A stretch of DNA of 63,343 nt, the filler included, from Blastocystis sp. subtype 4 (lineage: Eukaryota): assembly GCF_000743755.1 (NCBI RefSeq). It is 45 parts of 45 records of this genome, joined end to end, with 100 filler letters (N's around TTAATTAATTAA, not from the genome) between each part and the next. Parts side by side here need not be neighbours in the genome. Positions count along the whole stretch, not along the records: positions 44,339 to 45,607 come from NW_014568666.1; 44 more parts are not named here. One strand, given 5' to 3'. Positions 2,916 to 62,015 of this stretch are shown piece by piece. Below the pieces are notes generated by a model. The model was not told the DNA's origin and did not search any database. It was given only the letters and a program-made list of their open reading frames with translations. A program made the position numbers and the translations under genes. Position 1 is the first letter of the stretch. Each line of letters starts with the position of its first letter.

Positions 2916-4259
2916 AGTGGAATCATCGAAACTGACAGTATTCCAATCACTTGACACATCACTCTGTATCACCTTCCAATCTGTGTATTCAATCTGGAAA
3001 GGGAAATATGTTGAAAACACACTTGATACATAGATAGGTGAATAATTCTGACCATTCATTGTCATGATATCCAACTCCATTTCTCCATAATCAACAGTCA
3101 GAGTGTAACCACTTCCAGTCTGCCATCCATCTCCAAATGAATCAGCTCCTTGGAATGTGTAGATTCCATCATTCAAACAGAAATCAACATAGAAATAAGC
3201 ACTCGATACAGGGAATTTGTCTACAGATCTCAATACAGTTCCTGAGGTTCCTCTTCCTTCATACAATTTCCATGAGTTCTCATCTTTATTAGCGTCAGCT
3301 CTGATACGAACAGTCATCAATCCCTTGCCTCCAGTACATATTGAAACTGATAGAGAGATAGAATCAGTCACATCTCCTCCAGTCATCTTAGTAGCAGTGA
3401 TGGTGTAAGTTTGAGCACTACTCTCAACAGTGGCAGTACCTGAAATCCAACCAGTATGAGGATCCAACACAATACCAGCAGGAAGAGAAGGATTGATTCT
3501 GAAGTTCATATAACCATCTCCATTCTCAGGAATCACTTCAGACATCTCAACATTCTTGAATACAGTGACTGAAGAATCATAAGTGAAGTTAGGAATATCA
3601 ACCAACACATTATCAGCAAACAGATCCAGAGATTGAACTCTCCAATCACAAGAAGAAGGATTACCAGTACCAAAGTTCTCAAACTTGAATTGATTGTAAG
3701 GAGTATTGTTAGAGAAATAGATCTTATTCTTCTGACCAGGAGTTGAATAAGTGAGACCAGTGACTTCCTTCAGAAGTGTCCACTCATCTGTTCCCAAGTT
3801 ACGACCATACAAATTGAATTGGGTCGTCTCTTGGCCAATATAGATTGATGATGAAGAATAATAGTTCTGAATCTGAACAGAACTGATCCATTCACGACGA
3901 TTGTTTGATAGAGTCACTATGAAAGTATTTTCAGTGCAGGTTGAATAATAAATGGCACTTCCATAATACATATCGAAAGGACTTGTTGTAGTTCGAATTA
4001 GTCCAGTAGCTGTAATAGTGTATTCCCAGATATGAGATTCAGATTGTTCTGATGACATCAAACGAACCATTGCATCGAAATAGGATGTGGTGTAACTGTC
4101 AGTAATAGCAACAATCGCAACGCAATAGCAATCGTGTTACTTCCAGATTCAAGGAATGTAACTGGACTCGTTACTGTTGAAGTTTGCATTTGTTTACCTG
4201 GAAGAGTCACAACATAGTACTTCAAATCAGTATATGAATTGTCAACAGTGGATGAAGTG
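2916..4259 (-). CDS. Ig-like surface protein family, segment B (discoidin/galactose-binding-like domain + He_PIG Ig domain), fragment
   Basis: NNRREWISSVQIQN, PSLPAGIVLDPHTGWISGTAT, DSFGDGW; small indel near 4120. Confidence 0.8.
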
Positions 4260-11668: not shown

Positions 11669-13001
11669 ATGGAGAAATGGAGTGATTGGAGATTTGTCGA
11701 CTTCATCCACTGTTGAGAATTCATATATTGATTTGAAGTACTATGTTGTGACTCTTCCAGGTAAACAAATGCAGACTTCAACAGTAACGAGTCCAGTGAC
11801 ATTCCTTCAATCTGGAAGTAACACGATTGCTATTGCCATTGTTGCTATTGCTGACAGTTACACCACATCCTGCCTTCAGAACAATCTGAATCTCATATCT
11901 GGGAATTCACTGCTACATCTACTGGAATCAGTGGAACTGCTGTTAGTCCTTTCGATATGTATCATGGAACAACTATCCTTTCTTCATCCTGTACTGAGAA
12001 TTCTCTGATTGTGACTCTATCAAACAATCGTCGTGAATGGATCAGTTCTGTTCAGATTCAGATTCCTTATTACTCTGGTAGAGATCAATGGATAACTCAA
12101 TTCGTTCTGTATGGTCGTAACTCAGATACAGATGAATGGACACTTCTAACCAATGTGACTGGTCTCACTTATTCGTTTGCTGGTCAGAAGAGAAGAGTCT
12201 ATTTCCCTAACAATACTCCTTACAATCAATTCAAGTTTGAGAACTTTACTTCTGGTAATCCTTGTGATTGGAGAATTCAATCTCTGGATCTGTTTGCTGA
12301 TAATGTGTTGGTTGATATTCCTAACTTCACTTATGATTCTACTTCAGTCACTGTATTCAAGTATGTTGAGATGTCTGAAGTGATTCCTCAGAATGGAGAT
12401 GGTTACATGAACTTCAGAATCAATCCTTCTCTTCCTGCTGGTATTGTGTTGGATCCTTCTGGTTGGATCTCAGGTACTGCCACTTCTGAGAGTACTACTC
12501 AAACCTACACTATCACTGCTACTAAGATGACTGGAGGAGATGTGACTGCCACTATCTCTCTCAGTTACAGCATGTACTGGAGGCAAGGGGTTGATGACTG
12601 TTCGTTTTAGAGCTGATAGTTTTCCGGCTGAGAATTCATGGAAGCTGTATGAAGGAAGAGGAACCACAGGAGCTGTGTTGAGATCTGTAAGCGAGTTCCC
12701 TGTGAAGAATGCTTATTACTATGTTGATTTCTGTTTGAATGATGGAATCTACACATTCCAAGGAGCTGATTCATATGGAGATGGTTGGGATAATGGAAGT
12801 GGTTACACTCTGACTGTTGATATGGGAGAGATGGAGTTGGATATGAATGAAGTACCGAACACTGGTATGAAGCCTGTGATTGTGACCACTGTGTTCTCAA
12901 CGTATTTCCCTTTCCAGATTGAATACACAGATTGGAAGGTGATACAGAGTGATGTGTCAAGTGATTGGAATAGTGTGAGTTTCGATGATTCCACTTGGAA
13001 C
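11669..13001 (+). pseudogene. Ig-like surface protein family, segment B, frameshifted copy
   Basis: Same motifs as the other segment-B copies; deletions shift the frame near 11870 and 12565. Confidence 0.75.
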
Positions 13002-26014: not shown

Positions 26015-26217
26015 NNNNNNNNNNNNNNNNNNNNNNNNNNNNNNNNNNNNNNNNNNNNTTAATTAATTAANNNNNNNNNNNNNNNNNNNNNNNNNNNNNN
26101 NNNNNNNNNNNNNNGATTCCTTCAATTATTGAATTAGGATAATCCTACTATTGAATGATTTCTATCTGATGAAGAATTCAATTGAATTGTGAGAAATGTT
26201 CATATTATTAATTAGAG

Positions 26218-27999: not shown

Positions 28000-28870
28000 T
28001 ATTCAATTGTATTCCTTCATCAGCGAGAGATGGAATGTCTAGTTTAAAAACAGTCACAAACATCACTCTCCAATATTACCTTCCGTATACCCAAGAAATT
28101 GCAACCATCTCCTTTGAATAGAGATAGAGAAGGAAGATCTCATCAATCAATCATCACCATCATTCAAACTCTTTATTGTCAATACAATCGAGTCAGTTGT
28201 CTTATAATCGCCTTGAAGAGCTCCCTCCCTTAGAATGATGGACTGAAGTCGAGTCAGATCTCATTTATAAGTCATACAACCATTCATACTCTCAAATATA
28301 ATCGAATGACACTTAAAGAATGCATATTTACCCAATTGAATGGAGATGAGAGAAGGAAGATTCTTCAATTCAAATGATTCGTACCAATAGAATAAACATC
28401 TTCCAATGTGGATTTCTTTTAATTCATCACAGTTCATTATCACACATTTGCTTCCTCTTCTTGTCTCCTCGCTGACCACTCTCACCCATGCATATTGATC
28501 CAATTGAATGGATTTCAGAGAATGGAGATTATTCAATTCAAAGGATTCATACCAATAGAATGATATGTATCCAAAGTGGATTTGTTTCAATTGATCACAA
28601 TTCATTATCAAACATGAGCTTCCTCGATTATTCTCATTATCGAGATAGAAACTTTTCTCGCCAATGTCTATAGTCTCCAGTATATTCAATCCATCAATCA
28701 CAAATCGATTCACTTTATCAAAACAACGATTTCCAATTTCAATTTGTTTCAATGATATCAATGAATTGTTGAATATCAATGATGATATATCAGGATTGAA
28801 ATGATCATCAATAATCAGAGATTCAATACAACTAGTAACAATCAATTCACAATCATCAATCCATTTCATT
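28000..28870 (-). CDS. LRR protein family 1 with an internally duplicated LRR block
   Basis: RGSSCLIMNCDQL...YESFEL block occurs twice; family intron pattern follows. Confidence 0.7.
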
Positions 28871-28970: not shown

Positions 28971-30290
28971 TATGAATGAAGCAACTATGATTAACTGGGC
29001 ATTTGAAGCGAATAGCATGACAAGTGTGTTGAATGCTCCAGTTGGAATAAGCAAGTTGATGATTGGTGACAATTGTTGTGATGAAGTCAATTTCACTTCT
29101 CTGGATCTGAGTCGATTTGTTCATTTGAAGTCATTGGTGATTGGAAAGAACTCTCTGAATGAGATTGTGACAATCACAGGTGTTGAATATGAATTGTTGA
29201 ATGAAGTGATTATTGGTGAGAATAGTCTGAGTTCATTGAGTCATTCGTGAGGAATTGAGTGTTAATTGATGACTAGATACACAGTGAATAATCGCAATAC
29301 CTTGTTGAGTATTCCTTGGGATGTAACTGCACTGACTGTAACTGCCAATTCATGTAATGATAATACCATTAATGTGGTTGATTTGAGTTCATTCAAATTT
29401 GTTCGAAGTGTTGTGATTGGTGATAGCTGTTTCCAGTATGTTCAGATATTCTCGATAGTGGGACTCAATTGGCTTGAATCAGTCAGTATTGGTTCTTCCA
29501 GTTTTGGGGGTACTGGTTCATTATGGAAGGGTAGTGAGTTGAAGATTGTGAATTGTCCACAATTGAAGAGTTTGAGTATTAGAGCTGTTTCATTTGTTCG
29601 ATACAATTGGTTTGAATTGTCTGAGTTGCCTCAACTGAAATCTGTTGTAATGACTAGTAATGCTTATCATGGTTGTTTTCGATATGCTTGTAATGCAGTA
29701 TTCAGAGGTATGAATGATGGAAGAGATGGATTGTAGACTTGCCATCATTGGAGACTATTGATCTAGGAGATGGTGCCTTCCAATATGCAGAATATGTAGT
29801 ATTTGAAAGTATGTGATAATAGGAATTGAACATATCAGATCTTCCTAAGTTGACAGTGTTACTATTACAGACTTGGTGCTTGGAAGGTTCGACTTCTACA
29901 AAGACAATTGATGTAATTCCCTATTACTATAAGAATACTCTTATCATGAGGAGTATGTATGTTAACAGTTCTAATCATCAGATCTAGTGATGATGTGTTT
30001 GAGAATATGGGTTTTGTAAGGTTAGAAAGTATCACATTTGGAAGTATCAAACAATAGATGTTAGATCACCTCTCAATATTGAAGTATCTGGTTCTAATCA
30101 TTTCCAATACACTCACACTGTTGAAGTGAATAGTTGATGATTGGATTGTTGATTGAGATGTAGATGCATCTAGTCTTGTTCAGTTGATATTATCCAGAAG
30201 TGTTTATGTGAAAGCAACAGGTGAAGTGATTGATCTCAGTTCAATTCCATTATCAGTTGAGGATCTGAGGTTTGAGGATTATTCTCAAGT
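28971..30290 (+). CDS. LRR protein family 2, paralogue or allele of 21812-23131; possibly disrupted
   Basis: Collinear with 21812-22930; lacks 25 nt of exon near 29985. Confidence 0.7.
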
Positions 30291-30390: not shown

Positions 30391-31197
30391 TGTGATCTGG
30401 TTCACATACTCCTGATCTCCATTCTTCATCTTGATAATATCATGCTTAAGCTGAGTGTTCTTCAAAATACGCAAATCAGGAGTTACACTGGATACATCAC
30501 CTGAGTATGTATGAAGAGTTAGATCACATCGAACAATCGAACATTCATCCTTATTGATAGCCAGATTAGAAGAAGTTCCACCAGATGTAGTATAGATTCC
30601 TGAACCATCCGATGCCATCTGGAAGAACTCATCTGGTTCAACGAATGTCAAATCTGCTTTCAACATCTTCAGATTGATGAAAGATGGACTGTTACATCCT
30701 GCCAAAACTTGACTTAAAGGAACATTCAGATCGAAATCCCATTCAGTATCACTATGTTTTGTCAATGGGATATCTCCAGTAAAGATACTTGATCCACTAC
30801 TATTGTACCCAAATTCGGTCAGACCAACAGCCTGATCATGAGCATTCTTGGTTGTGAACAATTGGGTCAACACATTTCGTGCTTGACCAATGTACTGAGA
30901 TTCATCCTGTAATACAACATTCATAACCTCATTATTCTCATTGATGTACTGATAGTTCACTGTACTGTTCTTCACAATGCCTGCAGGTTGTTGAGCTGCA
31001 TATGCAACAATTGAAGCCTTACTGGACTGAGAAGCAGTGAATTTCACACGCACTTTGAATGTGAAGTAGCTGTTGTAGAGATCATAGAGATGATCATCCT
31101 GTGTGCTGGATAGTTGGACAGTGTATTGATTAACACTGTTGAAAGGATGTGGAGTAGTAGTGAGTGTTCTGTTCTCAAATAGATGAACAAGCGACAT
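30391..31197 (-). CDS. Polinton/Maverick-like double jelly-roll major capsid protein, N-terminal part
   Basis: YTVQL...DHLYDLYNSYFTFKVRV, FDLNVPLSQVLAGC, LKADLTF, SIVRCDLTL follow the strand pattern of Polinton-type MCPs; intronless. Confidence 0.6.
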
Positions 31198-31254
31198 TTC
31201 TTTACTATAGTAAGAGAAAAAGATGCAAAGTGTTTTTTACTTTGAATAAGTAAA

Positions 31255-31686
31255 ATGAATGATCCATTAGAGTTTAGTCCATGGCAAAACAATCCTTTAG
31301 ATTGGATGACAAGAGAATTGAACAAGAAGAATGCGAAATTGAAAGGATATACGATATAACAAATCTGTTCCATTTGATAGAATCTTCAAGTATGACACAA
31401 ATGTTGTTACAAAGAATCCAGCATCTGTCAATTACATGAAACCATTCTCCTTTGATCTTACATACACAAAGATGAACACCGAAAGACCAAAACTCGTTGA
31501 CAAGTATGTGAACAATTCTACTAACAAACGATTAAGAATCGCTGATAGGATGAGGAAAATGGTTGGAGATGTGAAAGTGAATCGAGCTGTTGATATGTCG
31601 AATATACCTTCTGAAGAACAAGATAAGGTATTGAAGATTCTTGGTATGACTGAATCTCAACTCAAGGATACTCCTCCAGAGAACTA
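31255..31686 (+). CDS. Hypothetical virus-element gene divergent from the capsid gene; one frameshift near 31350
   Basis: MNDPLEFSPWQNNPLDW...KG then a second frame RYNKSVPFDRIFKY...MKPFSF open to the contig end; intronless. Confidence 0.45.
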
Positions 31687-34613: not shown

Positions 34614-35540
34614 ATGGAATGATTGAATATGAAGGACTATTCAAAGATGATGTTATTATTGATGTTAATGATGATATGAGAATGAAATGGATTGATGACT
34701 GTGAATTGATTGTTACTAGTTGTATTGAATCTCTGATTATTGATGATCATTTCAATCGACCTGATATATCATCATTGATATTGAACAATTCATTGATATC
34801 ATTGAAACAAATTGAGATAGGAAATGATTGTTTTAAGAATGTGAATCGATTTGAGACTGATGGATTGAATGAATTGAAGAGTTTGGTTATTGGAAAGAAC
34901 AGCTTCTGTCTTGATTGGGTTAATAGAGAAGGAAGCAAATGTTTGATAATGAATTGTGATCAATTGAGTGATACTCACGTTGGAGAGAATTCATTCAAGT
35001 ATTATGAATCATTAGAATTGAAGACTCTTCCTTCTCTGATGTCCATTGAAATGGATGGTTTTGTATTTGAGTGGTGTCATAGGATAGTATTTGAGAGTAT
35101 GAATGATTGAATGAATGATGAATGAGATCTTATTCGACTTCAATCTATCATTCTTGGATATCAGATTCTTGATGGTGATTTACATACTGCTGAATCAAAT
35201 GAATTGATAATGAAGAGTACAAATGATGTTGATGATTGATTGATTAGATCTTCCTTCTCTATCTACATTCAAAGGAGATGGTAACAATTTCTTCTACATA
35301 GGCAAAGTGATATTGGAAAGTGATGATTGATGATTGTATCTGAACTAGACATTCCATCACTCACTGATGAAGGAATAATGATGGGCGACAATGTTTTTAG
35401 TAATGTGAAAGAATTAATCTGCTCAAGTATGATTAAATGAATTGATAATGATTAAGATGCTGATTCTCTCGATCGATTCATTCAACAAAAGACAAAGAAT
35501 AATAATAAGGAACAAAATAAGAAATGTGTAATAATCTAAT
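34614..35540 (+). CDS. LRR protein family 1, C-terminal part
   Basis: MIEYEGLFKDD, MKWIDDCELIV, LRR units, family introns. Confidence 0.75.
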
Positions 35541-36006: not shown

Positions 36007-37260
36007 ATCAGGAATGTGACTCAATTTCGATTCAGGAACTGCCACAAATGAATCATCTCCTGGTTTCTTCCAGGTCAGCATCATTCCAAATGTCATCATA
36101 CGGACCGCAAAGTATTCAACTTGGATTGGATAGTATCCTTTCTTATTGAATGTTATTGATCCTTCCTTTGCTGTCATCTCATTGTAACATTTCCAATTGT
36201 TGATCAGTAGATTACCCATAACCATCATTCTTGCCCCATCTCGATTCTCCAACTTAAACACATAATCACCAGAAATGTCCACTTCAATGAAACCACTCCA
36301 TTTCACATAAACCATACGATACATAAACAACTCATGAAGACTGGGATTCCAAGCATGACCTAAAGGCAATTCAGGATGATAGATCGAATCATCCACTGTA
36401 TCAGCAAACTTCAAAATGACATCTAAAAAGTATGTCATTCCACAAATCTGAGGAGTAAGAAGTCGATAATACTTCGCTTTCAATCCACTCACAGGAACAA
36501 CTCCCACAGTCACATGAATGGTTGTGGTTGTTGAACCCAAAGGACCTGAAGCAGTGATCACATAATCCTCAGAGGAATACAAGGAAGATGAACCACTAAT
36601 CACTCCAGAAACTGAATTGATAGAGATTCCTACTGGAAATGGAGGAGAAACAGTAAATGAAGTGATATAAGAACCACGCATACAAGGACGAGTGGTCTCA
36701 ATTGTTCCAGATATGAATGTGGTGATATCTCTTTCCTCAAATGAAGGAGCCATTCCTCCCACAAATGTCACAGTATCATCAATTGTTGTTAGTGGAAATC
36801 CTGCTTCAGGGGAAGAATACTGAACCAACAGACGAGCTAAATAAGAACTACTGAAATACAGTCGCATCAAATGACGACCAGTTGTGAGATAGATGGTTGC
36901 ATTCTGCATTCCGCTACTTCGAGAAATACGGATCAGTGGTGTAGTTGCTGTATCAAAGTACAATATCACTGATGCCATACAAGTGATATGGAACACATAA
37001 TCAGCTGAAGGACCAATATTCAGATATCCAGTAATACTTGCAGAGAAATAGGTCTTGATTCGTTCGATCATCCAGACCAGGCCAAGTGTGTGTCAGTTTA
37101 TGTGAATCATACTTATCTTCCAGATCCAATGTCTTCAGATTGGAACAGGATTCTCCCATCATATTGCTATAGAACCAATCTTCATAATAGGGGATCGTCC
37201 CAGCCATAGAGTAATAACAAGCAACTAAACCAGGAATCATGGCTTTAGATGGAACTAACA
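36007..37260 (-). CDS. PA14 / He_PIG Ig / PA14 surface protein fragment (frameshift near 37075)
   Basis: GLVACYY, GLKAKYY, VKWSGFI...GDYVF...RDGARM...GYYPIQVEYF (PA14 pattern); PFPVGISINSVSGVISG (Ig). Confidence 0.75.
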
Positions 37261-37397: not shown

Positions 37398-38684
37398 AAG
37401 TATCATCACCAAACCAATTGGTAGGCACTTCACCCATCTTATAATACCATTGTTCTGAATGATTGATAGAAGGACGACGAAGATAATGAGTATGAACATT
37501 GCTTTGGTAATTATCATATCGACCCTTCACAACCATCTCCTCTTCACCATCAGGTAACAGAGCATACATGTAATAATATGAATCAGACATCCAATAAGTA
37601 GATGTGGAATAGAAGGTGACATCAAATCGCTCGACAGTAATACACAAATATGTTTCCCAATCAAGATAAGCAGGATGAGTATGACCAGATTGAATCTCAT
37701 AGAGAATGTTATCATTGGATGAATCACGAATTCTGAAATACTCATTCTGAGGACTACTTTCGTAAGTTCGAACAATCTTGTAATAGGCACCAGTACATTC
37801 GGTAAATGCAATACTGATTGAAGTCTGAAGTGAGGTTGTTCCCATTGTTGATGTAATCTGATAGGATGTCGATGGAGAGGCAACAGTTGAAACTCCAGAA
37901 ATGATACAGGTATTGGCATCCATTGTCACACCAGAAGGAAGTGCAGGAGAGATAGTACAGCCACTGTAACCATACATTGTTGGTGCAATACTCACTTGTT
38001 CATAGGTACTGTAGAAGGAATACTGATTTTGAGGATAGGATATACTGGTAGGAGGAGCACGATTACAAACAAGGAATTGGAGCTCATAAACATACACACT
38101 TCCAGACTGTGATGATTGAGCATTGAATCGAATCAAAGGATACTTGGGAAGTACACTCACTAAATCCCATTGAGCCCATGTACTTGATTCATATGTTTGT
38201 TCAGAAATTGAGAAAACAGTCTGCCAACTAGATGTTGTTGACATGGCACCTTCAATTGAAAACATTCTAGGACTTAAGGTGGGACTTGTATAAGGCCACA
38301 CACGGAAAGAATTGATTTGAGGAATGGATCCTGAAATCTCAAAAGTGAGTGAACCAGGAGGAAAAGAGAGATAGGCTGCTGTATTTCGCGTAAACGTTAT
38401 AGCATAGGTAGGATTTGTAAATCCTGTAGTTGTAACAGCCATATCATTTGGAACGACAAAACAATTGTTTGTTGAACTCAAACCAGCCATGAGCGAGAGG
38501 AATCCATCAAATTGAATGAATCTAGTAGTTGTAAGATCCATAGGATGGACTTCAACAGCCAAAACACTCGATACGGTCACATCATTAGCAGGACGAATGA
38601 GTCCATGATAACCATACGATGTATAGCTTCCTGTAGCTACAGTACTGTTTGTTGGTGTTCCATCAGCCATGTTATCTCGATACA
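37398..38684 (-). CDS. Ig-like surface protein family, segment A, fragment
   Basis: Close paralogue of 20391-21711 and 58090-59339. Confidence 0.8.
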
Positions 38685-38784: not shown

Positions 38785-40071
38785 AGAACTTGTCATCACA
38801 ATCGTGTATTGACCAAGAGGCAAACACAATGTTTCATCCCAAGAACCCTCAGCAGTACTATGGAAAACAGAACTAGTCGAAGAACGAATACTCACTCCTT
38901 CACCTTCCACACCTCCTTCACGATGAATTGAAATCACAGTTCCAACACAAGTTTCAATTGAAATACTGATCACAGAAGAAACAATCTGTTCCATGATCCA
39001 TCCTGACACAGTATATTCATTCGTTCCAGTTACAAAACTAGTACCTTCAATACGACAGTCTGAACTAAGTCTCAATCCATCAGGAAGAACAGGAGTACTA
39101 CTACAATTCACAAAACCACTCACACCAGGAACAATCGATACAACTTCAACACCTCGCATGATTGAATATGAATTCTTAGGATATTCAATTGAAGAAGGAA
39201 CCATTTGAGAACATATCATAGGATACAAACCACTCAATCCAATCGAACTACCTGAAGATCCCATTTGGATTGTATAGTAGCCATATGTGGCATCTGAAGA
39301 TACAGAATTCGTTGTATAATAAGTCTTAGCATTGTATCCACTCATACTAATCGAACCCACTTCAGTCATCTCACTTCCACTCGACATTGAACCACTCCAC
39401 ATAAAACTCGTAGGAGCAATTGTTGTATCTGAACCCACTCCAAACTTCCATCCATTAACAATCACTCTCAAATCACTCCATGAATATGAAACACTCATCA
39501 AATCAGATGTGGTAGAGAATACAGTATTCATATTCATATCCGTCAAATCACTTGTACTTCCATGAGGACTTGTCACACTATACTCAGACAACATATAACA
39601 ATTAGAGTTCACAGAAGCACTTGCCATCTGAGATAGAATAGCTTCGAAAGTCACTTCACGAGATTCATTACTTGTGAAATGAAGTTCAACAGCAATCACA
39701 GCAGTAGGATTCAGAAGATCCATTCCAGAACGAACCACACCACGAACTACTTCAGAATTATAACTATTAGTAGCCAATGTAGTCGCATCAACCAATCCAT
39801 CAGCCATGTTATCACGATATACTTCAATTCCATTCACATAAATGATCACACCTGAGATATAACGCACACGAAGATCATAAGCAGCCAGATTCGTCATTAC
39901 TCTCACACTTGTTCGGAAGTACTGAGTTCCACTAGCACTTTCAGTCCAATTACCTTTGATGTATTCATCCCATCCATCTACAATGGCAGACACTTCAGTC
40001 CAATCAGCTTGAGGTGCGTTCAGAGAAAACTGCCATGCAGTCAAGGGAGTAATTGGAGCATAAAGAGAAAG
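38785..40071 (-). CDS. Ig-like surface protein family, divergent segment A-type fragment
   Basis: GVIIYVNGIEVYRDNM, AVELHF, PVLPDGLRL. Confidence 0.7.
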
Positions 40072-41554: not shown

Positions 41555-42862
41555 TCTCTTTCAATCCAACTCCACCTTGAATCACAATAGACTCAACACA
41601 ACAACAAATCTCATTCAATTCATTCATTCTTGATATCCACAATACTGATGAATACAGAGACAACAAGTGTTCAGAAGGAGGAATACAACTATTAACAGTG
41701 ATTAAGTATTCAAGAGAATCAGCATCTTTATCATTATCAATCAATCAATAATACTTGAACAAATCAATTCTTTCACTTCACCAAAGTATCCTCTCATCGG
41801 AATGCCTTCTAGACTAAGGGATGGGATATCTAGTTCAAACACAATCATATTCATCACTTTCAACTCTCACTTTTCCAATATTGCAGAAATTCCATCCATT
41901 CATTTCACATAGACAAGGAAGATCTGATCAACTAACCCTATTTTTCAACTCTCACTTTTCCAATATTGCAGAAATTCCATCCATATCCTTTCATTTCACA
42001 TAGACAAGGAAGATCTGATCAACTAACCCTATTATCATCAACCCATACCTTTCATTATCAATTCATTTGATTCAACTGTTTTCTCATCACCTTCAAAAGT
42101 CCATGGTCCAAGATACAATGATGATAATAGAATAAGATCTAATTCATCACTCAATCATCATTCCAACTCTCTAATACCACAGAATGACAATACTTAAGGA
42201 CATTAGCACCCAATCGAAGTGATAGAAGAGAAGGGAGATTCTTACATACAAATGATTCATAATAACAGAATGATNAACTCTCTAATACCACAGAATGACA
42301 ATACTTAAGGACATTAGCACCCAATCGAAGTGATAGAAGAGAAGGGAGATTCTTACATACAAATGATTCATAATAACAGAATGAATCATATCCAATCTGG
42401 ATTTCTTTCAACTGATTACAATTCATTATCAAACATTCACTCCCTATTCTTGTAGATTTAGTATCTAAGACCCTCCTTACAATCTTCACACTCTTCAATT
42501 CATTTAATCCATCTATCACAAATCGATTCACTTTCCTCAAACACCCATTTCCAATCTCAAGTCTCTCAACTCCTCCTATACAATCATTATCATATACTTT
42601 CCAATTCATTCCACTTCTTAATCGAACACCATATTCACCATCCTTCCATCTTCCTCTTCTTATCACTTCTCCTTTCTCATTCAATTCTTATACATATCCA
42701 TGTCTGTGTCCTTTCCTCCAATGACCTACATACAATACACTCTTTCCATCACTTCTCTATTCTATTCCTTTCCCTCTTCCAACAAATCCTTTCTTTGGAT
42801 TTCTTTCAAATCCTCCTTCATATACTCTCATTCCTTTCTTATCATATTCAATCATCAAATCT
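41555..42862 (-). pseudogene. MORN-like + LRR family 1-related gene fragment with local duplications
   Basis: GRWKDGEY and RLEIGNGCLRKVNRFVIDGLNEL; duplications at about 41858-42033 and 42165-42384. Confidence 0.55.
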
Positions 42863-43389: not shown

Positions 43390-44238
43390 TGTTTATCCTT
43401 CAGGTGAATGAATTGGTCAAACGAATCAGCATCTCAATCATTATCAATCCATCAATCATACTAGAAATATCGTAATTTCTCGTTTTATCGAATGTACCTA
43501 TCAGTTGTATTTTATCTTTAGTGAGTGATGGAATGTCTAAGTTAAATACAATCATCAATCATCACTTTCCAATGTCACTTGCCCTATATAATTGAAGTTA
43601 CCGCCATTTCCTTTGATTAGAGATAGAGAAGGGAGATCTCATCAGTCAATCATCACTATCATGCATACTTCTCATTATCAGTTCATTCGATTCAACATCC
43701 TCTCCACTACCATCAAGAGCATATAATCCAAGAGTGATGGATTGAAGTTGAGTCAGATCTCATTCATCATTCATTCAATTATTCATACTCTCAAATACTA
43801 TCCTATGACACCAATAGAATACATATTTATCCAATTGAATAGATATGAGAGAAAACAGATTATTCAATTCAAATGATTCATACCACCAATAGAATGACTG
43901 ATATCCAATGTGGATTTCACTCAATTGATCACAATTCATTATCAAACATTTGCTTCCTTCAATCTTCTCATCAAGATTGAAGCTATTCTTTCCAATGCTG
44001 ATAGTCTTCAATTCATTCAATCCATCAATCTCAAATCGAGTCACATTCTTAAAACAATCATTTCCAATGTCAATTTGTTTCAATGATATCAATGAATTGT
44101 TCAATATCAATGATGATATATCAGGATTGAAACCATCATCAATAATCAAAGATTCAATACAACTAGTAACAATCAATTCACAATCATCAATCCATTTCAT
44201 TCTCATATCATCATTAACATCAATAATAACATCATCTT
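43390..44238 (-). CDS. LRR protein family 1, C-terminal part
   Basis: Same framework and introns as the other copies. Confidence 0.75.
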
Positions 44239-44338: not shown

Positions 44339-45607
44339 TCATCGAAACTGACAGTATTCCAATCACTTGACACATCATTCTGTATCACCTTCCAATCTGT
44401 GTATTCAATTTGGAAAGGGAAATATGTTGAGAACACACTTGATACATAGATCGGTTTGTAATTCTGACCATTCATTGTCATCATATCCAACTCTATCTCT
44501 CCATAATCCACAGTCAGAGTGTAACCAGATCCAACCTGCCACCCATCTCCCCATGAATCAGCTCCTTCAAATGTGTAGATTCCATCATTCAAACAGAAAT
44601 CAACATAGTAATAAGCACTTGATACAGGAAATGGAGATACTGACTGAAGAACAGTTCCTGAAGTTCCTCTTCCTTCATACAGTTTCCATGAATTCTCACT
44701 AGGTAGACCATCAGCTCTGATACGAACAGTCATCAATCCCTTGCCTCCAGTACATACTGAAACTGATAGAGAGATAGTATCAGTCACATCTCCTCCACTC
44801 ATCTTAGTAGCAGTGATGGTGTAAGTTTGAGTAGTACTCTCAGAAGTGGCAGTACCTGAAATCCAACCAGTATAAGGATCCAACACAATACCAGCAGGAA
44901 GAGAAGGATTGATTCTGAAGTTCATGTAACGATCTCCATTCTGAGGAATCACTTCAGACATCTCAATATACTTGTATATAGTGATTGAAGTATCATAAGT
45001 GAAGTTAGGAATATCAGCCAACACATTATCAGCAAACAGATCCAGAGATTGAACATACCAAGTGCAAGAAGAAGGATTACCAGAACCAAAGTTCTCAAAC
45101 TTGAATTGATTATAAGGAGTATTGTTAGAGAAATAGATTCTTCTCTTCTGAGCTATGGTAGAATAAGTGACACCAGTGACTTCCTTCAGAAGTGTCCATT
45201 CATCTGTTCCCAAGTTACGACCATACAATTTGAATTGAGTTGCCACCTGATTGCTGTATGTTACCGAGTAATAATTCTGAATCTGAACAGAACTGATCCA
45301 TTCACGACGATTGTTTGATAGGACCAAAGTCAGAGAATTATCAGTACATATATTGTAATATACATTGCTACTATAAAACATATCAAATGGACCAGTTGCA
45401 ACTCCAATCATTCCAGTAGATGAAGCAGTGTATTCCCAGATATGAGATTCAGATTGTTCTGATGACATCAAACGAACAACGGCATCGAAATAGGATGTGG
45501 TGTAACTATCAGCAATAGCAACAATCGCAATAGCAATCGTGTTACTTCCAGATTGAAGGAATGTCACTGGACTCGTTACTGTTGAAGTTTGCATTTGTTT
45601 GCCTGGA
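44339..45607 (-). CDS. Ig-like surface protein family, segment B, fragment
   Basis: Open across the contig; family motifs. Confidence 0.8.
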
Positions 45608-49888: not shown

Positions 49889-51148
49889 TCCAGGTAAACA
49901 AATGCAAACTTCAACAGTAACGAGTCCAGTGACATTCCTTCAATCTGGAAGTAACACGATTGCTATTGCGATTGTTGCTATTGCTGATACTCAACTCACA
50001 TCCTATTTCGATGCAATGGTTCGTTTGATGTCATCAGAACAATCTGAATCTCATATCTGGGAATTCACTGCTACATCTACTGGAATGTATGAAACTGCTA
50101 CTTATCCTTTCGATATGTATTCTGGAACATGCATATATAGCTATGACTGTAATTCTAATTCTCTGATTGTGACTCTATCAAACAATCGTCGTGAATGGAT
50201 CAGTTCTGTTCAGATTCAGAACTCTGTTTTCTCATCACAAAGCAATCGATGGGCTACTGAGTTCATTCTGTATGGTCGTAACTCAGATACAGATGAATGG
50301 ACATTTCTGACCAATGTAACTGGTCTCACTTATTCGTTTGCTGGTCAGAAGAGAAGAATCTATTTCCCTAACAATACTCCTTATAATCAATTCAAGTTTG
50401 AGAACTTTGGTTCTGGTGATTCTTCTTCCTGTACCTGGTGGTATATTCAATCTCTGGATCTGTTTGCTGATAATGTGTTGGCTGATATTCCTGATTTCAC
50501 TTATGATTCTTCAGTCACTTTAGTCAAGTATATTAAGATGTCTGAAGTGATTCCTGAGAATGGAGATGGTTACATGAACTTCAGAATCAATCCTTCTCTT
50601 CCTGATGGTATTGTTATCGATCCTTCTGGTTGGATTTCAGGTACTGCCACTTCTGGAAATGGTACTCAAACCTACACCATCACTGCTACTAAGATAAGTG
50701 GAGGAGATGTGACTGATACTATCTCTCTATCAGTTACAATATGTACTGGAGGCAAGGGATTGATGACGGTTCGTATCAGAACTGATAATTGGCCCTATGA
50801 GTATTCATGGAAACTGTATGAAGGAAGAGGAACCTCAGGAACTGTGTTGAGATCTTTAGAACAATTCTCTTTATCGAATGCTTATTACTATGTTGATTTC
50901 TGTTTGAATGATGGTATCTACACATTTGAAGGAAAGGATTCATATGGAGATGGTTGGGCTAATGGAAGTGGTTACACTCTGACTGTTGATTATGGAGAGA
51001 TGGAGTTGGATATCATGACAATGAATGGTCAGAATTATTCACCAATCTATGTATCAACTGTGTTCTCAACATATTTCCCTTTCCAAATTGAATACACAGA
51101 TTGGAAGGTGATACAGAGTGATGTGTCAAGTGATTGGAATACTGTCAG
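49889..51148 (+). CDS. Ig-like surface protein family, segment B, fragment
   Basis: Open across the contig; family motifs. Confidence 0.8.
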
Positions 51149-51248: not shown

Positions 51249-52573
51249 AGATTCAAATCATGAAGAGATCATTCAATTCAATGGATTCTTATCTCTATTG
51301 GCTGGAATGACTTCAACCAACAATTGCTTCGTTTATCCTTATCCTATGACTTCCTCTTACTGTAGCTGGATAGATGAAGGTGATGTTGATGATCCTTTTG
51401 GTGATAATAATACTGATGATCCTTTTGATGAAGGTAATGTTGATGATCCTTTTGGTGATAATAACACTAATGATCCTTTTGATGAAGGTAATGTTGATGA
51501 TCCTTTTGGTGATGGGGGAGATAATGAACCTGATGATGACTCTATCAACGCTTTTGATTGGAATATTACCACAGCAACAGATAAGTTGCCAGAAACAGGT
51601 TCAGCCTTCATTTATTTTTCTGGCCCAAACATTCCACTCATCAATTCTTATCGATTGTTTCATGATCCTATTTCTTCATCTCCTTCTACTTTCTTCTTTG
51701 AGGGATCAGTTTGTTCAGCAGATTACAGCACATGTGAGGATAATGATTTCCTTTTCTCTCCATATGATGTTGTGTACAGATCAGTCGGCTGGAAACAGTT
51801 TGATCTTGTTTCTACTCCTAAAAGATATAATCGTCTTCGATTCACTAATCGTAAGTATCTTGAGGAAGTTGTGATACATGAACTTCAATTCCTTGTTTGT
51901 AATCGTCCTGCGAATAGTATTGAGTATCCTGAAACAGAATACTCATTCTACAAGGATTATCAGATCTCTATTAGTCCGATTCAATATGGATACAGTGATT
52001 GTTCGATTCAGCCTTCACTTCCTGATGGAATGAGTATTGATCCCACCACTTGTATCATCTCTGGTGTATCTCATTCTCTCGGTTCACAACAGTATACTGT
52101 CACATCAACAATGGTCACTCCTCCCATTCAATCTATTCTCAATCTCACATTCATTCACTGTTCTGGAAGTGTCTACAGAATTGAACGAGCATATATGGAC
52201 GATCCTGAGAGAGAGTATTTGAGTATTCGTGATACATCTAATGAGAGTATTATCTATCAGATCAATTCAGGTCATTCATATCCTGCCAATACTGATTTGA
52301 CATATTATCTGTGTATCACTGTGGATCGATTTGATGTTACCTTCTATTCCACTTCTACCTATTGGTCATCTGGTTCATATTATTACATGTATGCTCTGTT
52401 ACCTGATGGTGAAGAGGAAATGGTTCTGAAAGGACGATATGATGCAAAGCAGAATAATGTTCATCATCATTATGTTCGTCGTCCTGTTATCAATCATTCA
52501 GAACAATGGTATTATAAGATGGGTGAAGTGCCTACCAATTGGTTTGGTGATGATACATCAGGTTGGTCTCAGG
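51249..52573 (+). CDS. Ig-like surface protein family, segment A with an acidic repeat insertion
   Basis: Ends match 4360-5702; the middle is divergent. Confidence 0.8.
51373..51513 (+). repeat. Coding minisatellite, five 27-bp units with 54-bp higher-order period (DEGNVDDPF / GDNNTDDPF)
   Basis: GATCCTTTTG recurs every 27 bp. Confidence 0.95.
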
Positions 52574-52739
52574 NNNNNNNNNNNNNNNNNNNNNNNNNNN
52601 NNNNNNNNNNNNNNNNNTTAATTAATTAANNNNNNNNNNNNNNNNNNNNNNNNNNNNNNNNNNNNNNNNNNNNTGATTAGAATCAAACCATTTGTCTTGT
52701 TTGAAGTGTACAATACAAATCTAACAACAAACAATCATC

Positions 52740-53929
52740 TTAAACCTTTATCTGTTTTCCAGATCCCTTCTTTGACATTGTCTTCGTAGACTTCGTAGAC
52801 TTTGAAGATTTCTTTCCCTTCACACCACCTATTGCTTTCGCTTTCGATCCAACTCTCATCAAGAGGAATACAACAATAACAACAATCACAATCACCACAA
52901 TCACAATCAATACAATAGCGAATATGGGCATACAGAATCCAGATGCCTTCTGCCATTCTCCATCTTCACTTCCCAACACACAAGCACGCTTCACATAACT
53001 ACCCTGAAAAGCACAATCATACTCAGCCACTTCACCAACATCAGTCATAGGGAACACACCTTCTGCAACACATCGTCCTTTTCGTACTACAATTGATAGT
53101 GTTGCTTGAGTGGCTCCTGATTGATTCTCAGCATACACAGTGAAATATGTCAAGTCCATAGTATCAATAGGATTACCAGAGATCTCACCAGTCTGGGCAT
53201 TCAGACTCAATCCATCAGGAAGGAACACTCCAGTATCAATATACCAACGCTCCACAATATTCATCACCAAAGGAACACCTGTAGTCACTTGTGTACCCAT
53301 TACAAACATGTATTGTGATGCTTGATAACGAGCATTGGTCACAATGATCCATCTTCACTTCACCCAACACACCATTCGAACACTCACGATATGAATAACC
53401 TCTGTAACCCTCAGGACAAGAAGAAGGAGAGATTTGACCTTCACCCACTGAAGGATAGTTGTCAATTCCAGGACATACAGATCCTGTTGCCTTACAATAG
53501 GCCATATGAACAGAACCCAGAGTTGTTGTAGTTGAACCAGTATCAGTAACCTCCCATCGATATCTACGGAATCCAGCCAGAGCCACAGGAACAGAGATCT
53601 GAGGCTTTGTTCGAGAAGTCACAGTCTGATCCATTGCACGTAGTATTGTCACTGGTTCATCATCTTCATCATCAGGATTGTAGTTAGCAATGATATCAAA
53701 GCCCCATGAACTGACTGTGGTTCCTCCAACCAAGTTGAATGAGTTCCATTTGCTTCCAACCAGATTCTCAACAGTCCATTCAATATAGGTTCCAATAGCA
53801 TTAGATAGCTCACCAACAGTGTAAGGATCAAGATCCATGATTCCAGAAAGAGTACCAGAATTTAGATCAGTGGATTCCAGTGAAGAATAAGAATCAACAA
53901 CAGTAGAACAGTCTTCAACTCCAAATACT
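52740..53929 (-). CDS. Ig-like surface protein family, C-terminus: Cys-rich segments, Ig domain, single TM helix, Lys-rich tail (frameshift near 53340)
   Basis: LPDGLSLNAQTGEISG, IFAIVLIVIVVIVIVVIVVFLL, KGKKSSKSTK; TAA followed 6 nt later by TGTTTGTT (52733-52726). Confidence 0.8.
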
Positions 53930-56738: not shown

Positions 56739-57709
56739 GTTTGAAGAAGTATTGTGGTTGTTATTATGATGGATTGAAGAATGGATATGGATTATTGTAT
56801 GATCGAAATGGAATGATTGAATATGAAGGATTATTCAGAGATGATGTTATTATTGATTTTAATGATGATGTTGTTATTGTTAATGATGATATGAGAGTGA
56901 AACGTGATGGTTGTGAACTGACTGTTACTAGTTGTGTTGAATCTCTGATTATTGCTGATGATTTCAATCGACCTGATATATCATCATTGACATTGAACTA
57001 TTCATTGATATCATTGAAACGAATTGTGATTGGACATTATTGTTTTGAGAATGTGAGTCAATTTGTGATTGATGGATTGAATAAACTGGAGACTATCATC
57101 ATTGGATGGAGGTGTTTCTCTCTCTGTAATGGTCCTAAAGAAGGAAGCAAATGTTTGATAATGAATTGTGATCGATTGAAACAAATCCACATTTGTAAGT
57201 ATTCATTCATGTATTATGAATCACTTGAATTGAAGAATCTTCCTTCTCTCATATCCATTCAATTGGACTGGTATGTATTCAGTTGTTGTCATTCAATAGT
57301 ATTTGAGAGTATGAATGATTGAATGAATAATGAATGAGATCTGATTCGACTTCAATCCATCACTCTTGGATCACAGACTCTATGTGGTGATGGTAGTACT
57401 GTTGAATGGAATGAGTTAGTAATGAAGAGTATGAATGATACTGATGATTGATTGATCAGATCTTCCTTCTCTATCTCGAATTGATGGCATTGTCAATTTC
57501 AGTAGGATAGGTAAAGTGATATTGGATAGTAATGATTGATGATTGGATTTGAATTAGATATTCCATCACTCACTGAAGATGGAATAAAGTTGGATGATTC
57601 ATTCAATAATGTGTGGCAGTTGAATAGTACTAGTATGGTTGACTGATCAATAATGATTGAGATGCCGGATCTCTTCATCAGTTCATTCGATAAAGTAAAA
57701 TATACCTAA
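56739..57709 (+). CDS. MORN-like + LRR protein family 1, C-terminal part
   Basis: YCGCYYDGLKNGYGLLYDRNG..EYEGLF (MORN-like) followed by LRR units and family introns. Confidence 0.75.
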
Positions 57710-58089: not shown

Positions 58090-59339
58090 CAACCTGATGT
58101 ATCATCACCAAACCAATTGTTAGGTACTTCACCCATCTTATAATACCATTGTTCTGAATGATTGATAGAAGGACGACGAAGATAGTGACTAATCACATTG
58201 TTTTGATAACCATCATATCGTCCTTTCAGAACCATTTCCTCTTCACCCTCAGGTAACAGAGAATACATGTAGAAATAGGAATTCGAGTACCATGCAATTG
58301 CTGTGGTATCAAGAGTGATATCAAATCGCTCGACAGTGATACACAGATACGTTTCCCAATCTGTATCAGCAGTATGAGAATGACCAGATTGAATCTCAAA
58401 AAGAATGTTATCATTTGATGAATCACGAATTCTGAAATACTCATTCTGAGGACTGGTCTTGTAAGTTCGAACAATCTTGTAGAATGTCCCAATACATTCA
58501 TTAAAGGTTATACTAATAGTAGTTTGAAGTTGGCTTGTTCCTATCGTAGATGTAATCTGATAAGATGTTGATGGAGAAGCAACAGTTGCTGTTCCAGAAA
58601 TGATACAATATCTGGATCAAGTGTCACACCATCAGGAAGTGGTGGAGAGATAGAACAATCAGTATAACCAAACATAGTGGGAACGATATTGACTACATCA
58701 TAGTCCTTGTAGAACGAATATTGGCTTTGAGGATAGGATACACTCGTTGGAACAGGACGATTACAGACAAGGAATTGGAGCTCATGCACATAAATGGCTC
58801 CTTCCTGAGATGTTTGAGCATTGAATCGAATTAGAGGGTACTTGGGAAGTGTACTCACTAAATCCCATTGAGCCCATGTACTTGATTCATAAACTTGTCC
58901 AGAAATGAGTATAATAGTATTCCAATCAGATGATGTGGATGTTGCACCTTCAATCGAAAAACTACTTGGTCCATTTGTCGGGTGTGTATAAGGCCATAAA
59001 CGAAAAGAGTTGATTTGAGGAATAGATCCAGATATCTCGAAAGTGAGTGAACCAGGAGGAGAAGAGATATAGGCTCCAGTATTTCTCGAAAACGCTACAG
59101 CATAACTCGGATTCTCAAATCCAGTTGATGTAGCTATGACTTCATTTGGAACAACGAAACAATTGTTTGAAGAACTCAAACCAGCCATGAGTGAGATGAA
59201 TCCATCAAACTGAATTTGTCCAGAGGTTGAAAGATCCACAGGATGGACTTCAACAGCCAGAATACTTGACACAGTCACCTCATTAGCACTGCGAATGATT
59301 CCATGATAGTCATAGGATGAATAGCTTCCTGTAGCCACA
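58090..59339 (-). pseudogene. Ig-like surface protein family, segment A, frameshifted near 58610
   Basis: Paralogue of 37398-38684; frame changes after LPDGVTLDPD. Confidence 0.7.
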
Positions 59340-60780: not shown

Positions 60781-62015
60781 GTAACGAGTCCAGTGACATT
60801 CCTTCAATCTGGAAGTAACACGATTGCTATTGCCATTGTTGCTATTACTGACAGTTACACCACATCCTATTTCGATGCAATGGTTCGTTTGATGCCTTCA
60901 GAACAATCTGAATCTCATATCTGGGAATACACTGCAACTATGTCTGGAATGTATGGAGCTGCTACTTATCCTTTTGAAATGTATTACGGAAACAACATCT
61001 ATTCTTCTTCCTGTAGCAGTAACTCTCTGACTTTGACTCTATCAAACAATCGTCGTGAATGGATCAGTTCGATTCTGATTCAGAATTATTGGTCTTCATC
61101 ATCATACGCTGGTCAGGAGGCAACTCAATTCAAATTGTATGGTCGTAACTTGGGAACAGATGAATGGACACTTCTGAAGGAAGTCACTGGTCTCACTTAT
61201 TCAACTGCTGGTCAGAAGAAGAGAATCTATCTGTCTAACAATACTCCTTACAATCAATTCAAGTTTGAGAACTTTGGTTCTGGTAATCCTTCTTCTTGTG
61301 CTTGGAGAGTTCAGACATTGGATCTGTATGCTGATAGCACATTGACTGATATTCCTAACTTCACTTATGATTCTTCAATCACTGTATTCAAGAATATTGA
61401 GATGTCTGAAGTGATTCCTGAGAATGCGGATCGTTATATGAACTTCAGAATCAATCCTTCTCTTCCTGAGGGTATTGTGTTGGATCCTCACACTGGTTGG
61501 ATTTCAGGTACTGCCACTGCTGAGAGTGCTGTTCAAACCTACACCATCACTGCTACTAAGATGACTGGAGGAGATGTGACTGTTACTATAACGTTTGGAG
61601 TCGTAGTATGTACTGATGGCAGGGGTCTGATGACTGTTCGATTCAGAGGTGATTCTTATGCCAATGAGAATTCATGGAAGCTGTATGAAGGAAGAGGAAC
61701 ATCAGGAACTGTGTTGAGATCTGTTAGCGAGTTCCCTGTAGCGGATGCACACTACTATGTTGATTTCTGTTTGAATGATGGAATCTACACATTGGAAGCA
61801 GCTGATTCATGGGGAGATGGATGGCAGGCTGGATCTGGTTACACTCTGACTGTGGATTTGGGAGAGATGGAGTTGGATATCATGGCATTGAGTAGTGGAA
61901 CGAAACCCGTGACTACATCAACTGTGTTCTCAACATATTTCCCTTTCCAGATTGAATACACGAATTGGAAGGTGATACAGAGTGATGTGTCAAGTGATTG
62001 GAATACTGTCAGTTT
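60781..62015 (+). CDS. Ig-like surface protein family, segment B, fragment
   Basis: Open across the contig; family motifs. Confidence 0.8.

What the first reader, a model, noticed from the sequence alone, without database searches (positions are those of the whole stretch)
44339..45607. Ig-like surface proteins with constant framework and Tyr/Ser-rich, length-variable loops
Seen: six segment-B copies (contigs at 2916, 11669, 44339, 49889, 54030, 60781) are nearly identical in framework but differ at fixed sites. After the IQ motif: NYYSSSSIYIGQETTQF / IPYYSGRDQWITQF / NYYSVTYSNQVATQF / NSVFSSQSNRWATEF / NYYTATYSNSKATQF / NYWSSSSYAGQEATQF. They also vary around PF(D/E)M and in R.D....E.SW. Inferred: a diversified binding repertoire (antigenic variation, or recognition of glycans, bacteria or viruses) with CDR-like loops.
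Basis: partly seen in the sequence, partly recalled or inferred. Interest (0 to 1): 0.72.

Follow-up and report, generated by a model that had tools for sequence, protein, structure and literature searches.

The report
Variable lectin-like surface repertoire in Blastocystis
The human gut protist Blastocystis carries dozens of copies of a large predicted surface protein whose scaffold stays nearly constant while loops predicted to lie on one face of two modules (one with a predicted sugar-binding fold) differ and form a patchwork between copies, likely giving it an inherited library of binders for gut sugars or bacteria.

Summary
The six contigs are the middle third of ~1,650-aa predicted surface proteins of Blastocystis subtype 4, from the He_PIG 'putative Ig' family reported in 2011 as candidate adhesins. 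The variable loops are not in the Ig-like domain. They lie in a predicted CBM32/F5-8C (discoidin) domain (Z 14-17) and a second small beta-sandwich. In 28 paralogues, 25 of 29 hypervariable sites sit in loops inferred to be at one end of these domains, none at the other end. Copies are real paralogues: two match long-read proteins at 100%. They are patchworks (p=0.0005), and silent divergence falls about 14-fold with distance from the loops, as expected if gene conversion homogenises the scaffold while loop differences persist. Loop-wide pN/pS is about 1; site models favour positive selection but recombination inflates them. The repertoire is largely shared between two assemblies, so fast rearrangement is unlikely. 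Ligands and expression are untested. Best reading: an inherited, recombination-shuffled binder repertoire, likely for glycans.

The parts
44341..45606 (-). Open frame, 422 aa: middle segment (about aa 717-1140) of a ~1,650-aa predicted type I membrane protein
   Evidence: full-length relatives 71-86% identical
45451..45606 (-). End of near-invariant module C2 (probably a jelly-roll, weak lead); the contig breaks here, likely because C2 is ~95% identical among paralogues
45019..45450 (-). Module D2 (aa ~53-196): predicted CBM32 / F5-8 type C / discoidin fold, carrying most variable loops
   Evidence: VIA Z 17.0 (7nsn), 15.7 (3nng), 14.6 (2v72, rmsd 2.4 over 130); Foldseek TMt 0.74 to 2v72; Pfam F5_F8_type_C in 13 of 24 homologues at E<=1, best 5.9e-5
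45391..45426 (-). Variable loop V1 (aa 61-72), before PF(D/E)M
45340..45375 (-). Variable loop V2 (aa 78-89), after PF(D/E)M; contains invariant Cys87
45241..45276 (-).
45055..45063 (-). Variable patch V5 (aa 182-184) beside invariant Cys181 and near-invariant Trp183
44755..45015 (-). He_PIG 'putative Ig' domain (aa ~198-284): low-variability spacer
   Evidence: Pfam PF05345 34.5 bits, aa 223-283; 2 of 29 hypervariable sites
44413..44754 (-). Module E2 (aa 285-398): predicted eight-strand beta-sandwich without a clear solved relative; four variable loops V6-V9 (aa 300-303, 324-331, 349-358, 377-384) on alternate strand connections
44341..44412 (-). Start of near-invariant module C3; second contig break point
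2916..4259 (-). Segment-B paralogue, +5 bp frameshift near its 5' end
11669..13001 (+). Segment-B paralogue, -25 bp and -2 bp frameshifts
49889..51148 (+). Segment-B paralogue, 419 of 419 residues identical to long-read protein P0247
54030..55284 (-). Segment-B paralogue, best long-read match 88.5%
60781..62015 (+). Segment-B paralogue, 411 of 411 residues identical to long-read protein P0223
4360..5702 (+). Segment A of the same family (C1 end, D1, Ig1, E1); further copies at 20391-21711 (-), 37398-38684 (-), 51249-52573 (+), 58090-59339 (-)
52674..53929 (-). Segment C of the family (D3, Cys-rich links, Ig3, transmembrane helix, Lys-rich tail), in two frames

Best explanation
These contigs are pieces of a family of about 30 inherited Blastocystis subtype 4 genes for large predicted surface proteins whose predicted lectin-fold and small beta-sandwich modules carry variable loops inferred to lie on one face, and gene conversion between copies likely keeps the scaffold uniform while shuffling the loops, so that the family likely works as a fixed library of binders for glycans on mucus, bacteria or food. 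Shown: the paralogues, the layout (signal peptide, three repeats of E-C-D-Ig, transmembrane helix and Lys-rich tail in most), the loop variation, the patchwork, the silent-site gradient, the sharing between two assemblies. Predicted: the folds. Inferred: which end the loops face (strand order, no coordinates seen), conversion as the cause of the patchwork, selection keeping loops different. Untested: surface location, ligand, expression pattern.
For: Fold: D2 matches CBM32/F5-8C at Z 14-17. Position: 25 of 29 sites with entropy >=2 bits lie in 87 loop residues at one inferred end of D2 and E2; 0 lie in 37 residues at the other end. CBM32 sugar sites lie in loops at the edge of the sandwich (PMC3313936, passages). 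The three loops randomised in CBM32-based nanoCLAMP binders (817-820, 838-844, 931-935 of 807-946; PMC10404686, passages) fall at offsets like V1, V2 and V5; this is by offset only. Conserved N-glycan sequons (32 of 34 rows) are at aa 161 and 201, away from that face; variable-end positions carry one in at most 3 of 34. Conversion: nearby sites are more compatible than distant ones (0.39 within 30 bp against 0.57 overall, 101 sites, six window copies, p=0.0005; proteins p=0.005-0.02). Close paralogues carry different V3 loops in near-identical backgrounds. L001 and L002 share an identical tract over V1-V2 spanning 90 polymorphic sites. C2 is 95% identical among 20 paralogues while D1 is 47%. 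Fourfold silent divergence is 0.52, 0.13, 0.12, 0.048, 0.037 at 1-2, 3-5, 6-10, 11-20 and >20 codons from a hypervariable site (the first bin has only 5 columns). Site models: LRT 97 (12 sequences) and 30 (7 intact) with rate variation; 57.1 against 1.8-38.8 in 17 of 17 mosaic null simulations. The same positions vary in 57 distant-subtype proteins (Spearman 0.55). Stability: 18 of 25 named subtype 4 fragments are >=99% identical to a long-read protein.
Against: No ligand was tested, and the canonical CBM32 galactose residues (His, Trp/Tyr, Arg, Asn, Phe) are not visible as invariant columns in D2. Discoidin folds also bind proteins and lipids (DDR, factor V, muskelin among the hits). Tree-free pN/pS in the loops is 1.07 (CI 0.85-1.37), or 0.81 and 0.91 when loops are defined by structure; sites chosen from distant subtypes give 1.2-1.4 with intervals spanning 1. 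Mosaic nulls alone gave LRT up to 38.8, so the site-model p-values are far too small; multi-base changes and loop misalignment were not simulated. Tyr is not enriched at the most variable sites (6.7%). The He_PIG domain also has pN/pS 0.85. In higher-GC subtypes the sampled paralogues show no homogenised C2 (56-57% identity in the two largest groups). Mosaics in the long-read set could partly come from polishing. Four of six window copies have no full identical long-read match among those retrieved.
Confidence: 0.58

Rival explanations
1. Immune-driven antigenic diversity: the loops differ because they are the surfaces most exposed to host secretory antibodies, and cells may express one or a few copies at a time, as with Giardia VSP or var genes (recalled).
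For: Multi-copy dispersed family with broken copies, patchwork recombination, site-level omega above 1, predicted surface location.
Against: Variation is confined to one inferred end of each module, where this fold binds ligands, while other exposed loops and whole C modules are almost invariant and would be shared epitopes. Most copies are unchanged between two assemblies. The variable end is nearly free of sequons.
Confidence: 0.2
2. Neutral loops plus self-limiting conversion: surface loops tolerate change, diverged patches escape conversion for mechanical reasons, and no binding diversity is selected.
For: Loop-wide pN/pS about 1; raised silent divergence also follows if mismatches block conversion; broken copies are common (2 of 6 in the window, 3 of 6 metagenome loci with stops).
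Against: It does not explain why loops at the other end stay conserved (0 of 29 sites), why the same positions vary in distant subtypes, or why the real LRT exceeds 17 of 17 mosaic nulls.
Confidence: 0.13
3. Cell-cell or self/non-self recognition: the variable faces bind other Blastocystis cells or a virus of the protist rather than glycans of host or bacteria.
For: Discoidin folds also bind proteins (one search hits); cadherin-like annotations; constant/variable cassette layout.
Against: Two assemblies share most copies unchanged, whereas kin tags usually differ between strains (recalled); no direct evidence.
Confidence: 0.06
4. Assembly artefact: the variants are chimeras or alleles produced by short-read assembly of a collapsed repeat.
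For: Contigs break at the same constant blocks; Blastocystis strains appear diploid (PMC10690189, Results part 1).
Against: Two copies are 100% identical over 411 and 419 residues to long-read proteins, and the finding's copy is identical over residues 5-256 to metagenome protein P0138. Long-read paralogues lie on about 15 different large contigs. DNA divergence of 11-18% is too high for alleles when whole copies match at 100% between assemblies.
Confidence: 0.03

Closest known systems
Blastocystis IPR008009 (He_PIG) / cadherin-like genes, 26 in subtype 7 (Denoeud et al. 2011, PMC3129679; passages and supplement search seen)
   Same: Same family: He_PIG domain, predicted membrane proteins, proposed adhesins of likely bacterial origin. 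The supplement lists IPR008979 13 times and IPR000421 once, in the rows seen beside IPR008009 (their meaning, galactose-binding-like and F5/8C, is recalled).
   Different: The passages seen do not describe the threefold E-C-D-Ig layout, one-face hypervariable loops, near-invariant C modules, patchwork recombination or alternative tails.
CBM32 / F5-8 type C (discoidin) modules of gut bacterial glycosidases, and F-type lectins
   Same: Predicted fold of D2 (Z 14-17 for CBM32/F5-8C, 12.6-12.8 for fucolectins); variable residues fall in the loops where these folds bind.
   Different: 9-18% identity; canonical galactose residues not conserved as a set; here a eukaryote multiplies and shuffles the module in about 30 genes, with no glycosidase attached.
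nanoCLAMP antibody mimetics (engineered NagH CBM32-2; PMC10404686, passages seen)
   Same: Constant CBM32 scaffold with variable loops at similar offsets.
   Different: Engineered by library selection; the Blastocystis set is natural and also varies a fourth, length-variable loop (V3) and a second module.
Variant surface antigen families of parasites (Giardia VSP, Plasmodium var/rif, trypanosome VSG and MASP; recalled, search listing only)
   Same: Dispersed multigene surface family, pseudogenes, segmental recombination.
   Different: Much smaller family, variation limited to loops at one end, large invariant exposed modules, copies stable between assemblies; exclusive expression not shown.
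Diversity-generating retroelements (recalled)
   Same: Variable residues on a lectin-like fold with a constant frame.
   Different: No adenine-restricted change: variable-end columns are polymorphic at A 62/74, C 38/50, G 31/51, T 52/86; variation is spread over nine stretches.

Membership tests
Blastocystis He_PIG (IPR008009) adhesin-candidate family | PF05345 He_PIG above the curated cut-off | tested here: met
   34.5 bits against cut-off 24; three stretches in typical full-length members
Blastocystis He_PIG (IPR008009) adhesin-candidate family | Blastocystis origin, signal peptide and membrane anchor | tested here: met
   Top named hits are Blastocystis subtype 4 / BT1; hydrophobic N-terminus and C-terminal helix in most full-length members by hydropathy
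Blastocystis He_PIG (IPR008009) adhesin-candidate family | Surface location and adhesion | not testable with these tools
   Only proposed in PMC3129679
CBM32 / F5-8 type C / discoidin | Beta-sandwich fold of the family | tested here: met
   Predicted model, Z 17.0/15.7/14.6, rmsd 2.3-2.5 over 130-138 residues
CBM32 / F5-8 type C / discoidin | Pfam PF00754 match at the curated cut-off | tested here: inconclusive
   13 of 24 homologues match at E<=1, best 5.9e-5; the window's own D2 has no match; full-length scores 13-15 bits against cut-off 28.2
Canonical galactose-binding CBM32 | Conserved His, aromatic, Arg, Asn, Phe motif | tested here: not met
   No invariant His or Arg in V2 or V3; motif from PMC3313936; mapped by offset, not by residue-level superposition
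CBM32 / lectin | Carbohydrate binding | not testable with these tools
   Needs binding assays
Immunoglobulin-superfamily receptor with CDR loops | Hypervariable loops lie on the Ig-fold domain | tested here: not met
   2 of 29 hypervariable sites in the He_PIG domain, 27 in modules D and E
Antigenic-variation system | Multi-copy variant surface family with recombination and broken copies | tested here: met
Antigenic-variation system | Mutually exclusive expression with switching | tested here: inconclusive
   Only assembled contigs of bulk runs were available, and RNA status of the best run is a guess
Diversity-generating retroelement target | Adenine-specific variation in one variable region | tested here: not met
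CBM60/CBM36-like module (for E2) | Fold match standing clear of background | tested here: inconclusive
   Best Z 6.7 to 2xhh, rmsd 2.8 over 91 residues, tied with unrelated sandwiches; no Foldseek hit at E<=0.001

The most novel reading that the evidence does not exclude
Blastocystis subtype 4 has evolved a natural antibody-mimetic library on a bacterial-type CBM32 scaffold. Gene conversion through near-invariant spacer modules recombines loop cassettes among about 30 genes, giving a combinatorial, positively selected set of binders. The same variable head is mounted on different tails (membrane anchor, long Ig stalk, or a papain-like domain that looks inactive) and is used to pick particular gut bacteria or host glycans, which would offer a molecular basis for subtype-specific links between Blastocystis and the microbiome.
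Probability: 0.3. Interest if true: 0.8.

Novelty: new variant of a known kind. Interest (0 to 1): 0.56.

Why it matters
Blastocystis is described as the most common eukaryote of the human gut, and how it attaches, feeds and persists is poorly known. This family was listed in 2011 as 'Ig-domain adhesin candidates' and, in the papers I could search, not dissected since. Placing the diversity on a lectin-type fold makes a concrete test possible: 140-residue modules from about 30 paralogues can be expressed and screened on glycan arrays and gut bacteria. It is also a clean natural case of a constant scaffold with conversion-shuffled loops, on the fold that engineers chose for nanoCLAMP binders.

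Tried and rejected
Ciliate genetic code: not needed, frames are open under the standard code. Whole-genome search: no genome is held for this window. Sequence search of PDB gave nothing useful. Fold search for module E gave no clear relative; Atlas hits for E and C are unnamed clusters, with GH2/beta-galactosidase sugar-binding domains only at 0.82-0.83 for C. The first null simulation ran at one fifth of the real divergence and was dropped in favour. Expression: runs were contigs only; run X1 holds copy-specific loops of the 60781 copy at 100% and pieces of other variants, but its RNA status is a guess and depth cannot rank genes; X11 and X12 laid nothing, which is no proof of absence. Strain-specific absence of copies is not claimed, because the clustering missed at least one identical pair (P0133 and P0007). 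The profile search of 1.84 billion representatives never ran, so the range outside Blastocystis is open; the named full-coverage hits are all Blastocystis, but most hits are unnamed. Literature searches found no paper describing loop hypervariability or conversion in this family; find-searches in PMC5608401, PMC10690189 and PMC12129017 showed no discussion of it. The listing shows version 1 of the Lind preprint mentions immunoglobulin once and adhesion twice; I could not read that version or its supplements. Subscription papers were not searched. A search for theory on divergence peaks found nothing relevant, so that idea is recalled. Rows dropped: L025, L020, L002 and L031 from the domain alignments because of stop codons; six rows above 95% identity and four with short or no match before the entropy count.

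Full report
What the window is. It is 45 contigs of about 1.2-1.4 kb joined by N spacers; no genome is held for it. The finding's contig carries an open frame at 44341-45606 (minus strand, 422 aa). Its closest named relatives are Blastocystis subtype 4 and strain BT1 proteins of 1,365-1,662 aa at 74-83% identity, with subtype 1 proteins at about 44-45%. I did not determine the window's source. Two named subtype 4 proteins (P0121, P0130) match window copies apart from gaps, so that named set may not be independent of the window.

The observation. All six loops are as quoted. Identity to the first copy is 72-85%, and DNA identity among the six is 82-89%. Two copies are frameshifted. The six contigs all cover residues about 690-1145 of a full-length protein; five others cover about 190-650 and two cover the C-terminal part. 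They break at the same places, likely because those blocks are nearly the same in all copies and collapse in short-read assembly.

Anatomy. Typical members have a hydrophobic N-terminus, three repeats of modules I call E, C, D and He_PIG, Cys-rich links, one transmembrane helix and a Lys-rich tail. The repeat homology of D1 and E0 to D2 and E2 is weak by profile and rests partly on motifs seen by eye. Among 20 long-read paralogues mean identity is C2 95%, C3 91%, Ig2 79%, E2 76%, D2 73%, D3 70%, D1 47%. An AlphaFold2 model of the finding's segment (pLDDT 81) matches CBM32 and F5/8 type C domains over aa 44-196 at Z 17.0, 15.7 and 14.6, F-type lectins at 12.6-12.8 and DDR2 at 12.8 (Foldseek agrees). 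Module E folds as a beta-sandwich (pLDDT 81) with no clear solved relative (best Z 6.7). He_PIG is aa 223-283.

Where the variation is. In 28 paralogues under 95% identity, 29 sites reach 2 bits. I split loops by alternate strand connections from the model's secondary structure. No coordinates were available, I had already seen the entropy profile, and the two N-terminal loops of D were assigned partly from recalled CBM32 topology. Fifteen sites fall in D loops at one end, ten in E loops at one end, none in the 37 residues at the other ends, two in strands and two in He_PIG (p=2e-8). CBM32 sugar sites lie in loops at the sandwich edge, with a His/Tyr/Arg/Asn/Phe motif (PMC3313936, passages). 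By offset V2, V3 and V5 take those places, but the motif is not conserved here. The nanoCLAMP library loops (PMC10404686, passages) have offsets like V1, V2 and V5. V3 has 31 versions of 10-14 residues in the subtype 4 set, 25 of them among 32 long-read gene models. It is 20% Tyr and 21% Ser, but the most variable sites overall are Ser/Ala/Thr-rich with 6.7% Tyr. The same positions vary in 57 proteins of distant subtypes (Spearman 0.55).

Real and stable. Copies 49889 and 60781 are identical to long-read proteins over 419 and 411 residues, and the finding's copy equals metagenome protein P0138 over residues 5-256. Of 25 named subtype 4 fragments, 18 are at least 99% identical to a long-read protein, 3 are 97-98% and 4 are under 90%. 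The repertoire is therefore inherited and mostly shared, not remade in each isolate. Copies 2916, 11669, 44339 and 54030 have no full long-read twin among those retrieved, but retrieval was incomplete.

How diversity is made. Informative sites close together are more compatible than distant ones in the six window copies (0.39 within 30 bp, 0.47 within 100 bp, 0.57 overall; p=0.0005) and in 27 proteins (p=0.005-0.02). Six close paralogues that differ by 0-4 residues per 50 over most of the first repeat carry different V3 and E loops in different combinations. L001 and L002 share an identical tract across V1-V2. Silent divergence at fourfold sites is 0.25 in variable-end loops against 0.04-0.05 in He_PIG and the C ends, and falls from 0.52 to 0.037 with distance from hypervariable sites. 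This is the pattern expected when conversion homogenises a scaffold and loop differences resist it (theory recalled). It is not adenine-specific, so not a diversity-generating retroelement. In higher-GC subtypes the sampled paralogues are old throughout (C2 56-57% in the two largest groups), so the homogenised state may be recent and subtype 4-like, although long metagenome contigs favour unique copies.

Selection. Tree-free pN/pS is 1.07 (0.85-1.37) in variable windows and 0.52 in the framework; 0.81 and 0.91 in structure-defined loops; and 1.2-1.4, intervals spanning 1, at sites chosen from distant subtypes (six window copies alone give 1.1 and 0.45). My own M1a/M2a fits on 12 DNA sequences give 7% of sites at omega 5.3, LRT 146; with rate variation LRT 97, and 30 for seven intact copies. 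Mosaic null data gave 1.8-38.8 in 17 runs against 57.1 for the real data in the same reduced pipeline. Positive selection at some loop sites is likely, not proven.

Mechanism. Most likely the cell displays a set of about 150-kDa-plus rods, each with several variable binding faces held on constant spacers; different copies recognise different glycans on mucus, bacteria or food, and conversion between dispersed copies makes new loop combinations over evolutionary time. Immune-driven diversity remains a serious rival. It fits less well with large invariant exposed modules and a nearly sequon-free variable end, but exclusive expression could not be tested.

Alternative tails. The same head is joined in some gene models to extra He_PIG repeats plus a membrane helix (P0009, P0212, P0243) or to a Pro/Thr linker, an LRR-like stretch (by eye) and a Peptidase_C1 domain without a membrane helix (P0229, P0238, P0253, P0268). 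A distant homologue has that domain at its N-terminus (P0298). The catalytic Cys position appears to read Ser in both (motif recalled). These are gene models, not confirmed transcripts.

What is known. Denoeud et al. 2011 (PMC3129679; passages; supplement search) reported 26 IPR008009 genes in subtype 7 as adhesin candidates of likely bacterial origin, and their table already lists IPR008979 13 times. For Gentekaki 2017 (PMC5608401) I saw passages; for Lind et al. I saw the preprint outline, Results part 1, one further section and term searches (PMC10690189), and passages of the journal version (PMC12129017); none of it discusses this family's variation. Version 1 of the preprint and its supplements were not readable and may bear on novelty. 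The scan's own index held no related note.

Verdict. A known family with an apparently undescribed organisation: one-face hypervariable loops on a lectin-type fold, a conversion-homogenised scaffold and a stable inherited repertoire. New variant of a known kind; interest 0.56.

Noticed in passing
P0229, P0238, P0253, P0268 (C-terminal), P0298 (N-terminal); not in the window: The variable binding head is fused in gene models to a papain-like Peptidase_C1 domain whose catalytic Cys position appears to be Ser, via Pro/Thr-rich and LRR-like stretches; it occurs at opposite ends in different lineages.
   Followed up: partly
window 51249-52573: Segment-A copy with four to five acidic GDNNTDDPFDE-like repeats inserted in the first variable loop of module D1; identical over 441 residues to long-read protein P0242.
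   Followed up: partly
window 16037-17443: 469-aa low-GC open frame that by eye resembles a protein-primed family B DNA polymerase of a Polinton-like element (recalled); no Pfam, PHROG or useful PDB hit.
   Followed up: partly
window 30391-31684 and 13562-14104: Intron-free frames of unknown kind, possibly from the same sort of mobile or viral element; no Pfam hit for the two scanned and only one weak unnamed PHROG hit.
   Followed up: partly
window 8765-9151, 18413-18865, 21884-22351, 28264-28869, 29266-29733, 34616-35107, 42154-42687, 43778-44236, 56741-57319: Many near-duplicate leucine-rich, BspA-like fragments (label recalled; no Pfam hit for the one scanned): a second expanded family that also fragments the assembly.
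   Followed up: no
window 36007-37092: PA14 domain plus weak He_PIG protein, another candidate glycan-binding surface protein.
   Followed up: no
window 38785-40071: Distant member of the same family (about 31% identity to P0005) without a close match in the retrieved set.
   Followed up: no
window 10202-11568 and 26115-27455: Two related copies of an unannotated protein with a hydrophobic N-terminus, one broken into frames; glycosyltransferase-like by eye, no Pfam hit.
   Followed up: no
L002 and L020 codon 322, L007 codon 48 (finding's numbering); L025, L031: Stop codons in metagenome copies, two at the same codon: broken copies are common in this family.
   Followed up: partly
L017:203-6446: Two family members lie tail to tail and appear to overlap on opposite strands in one metagenome contig; L016 shows an inverted partial copy. 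Could be an inverted duplication or an assembly error.
   Followed up: no
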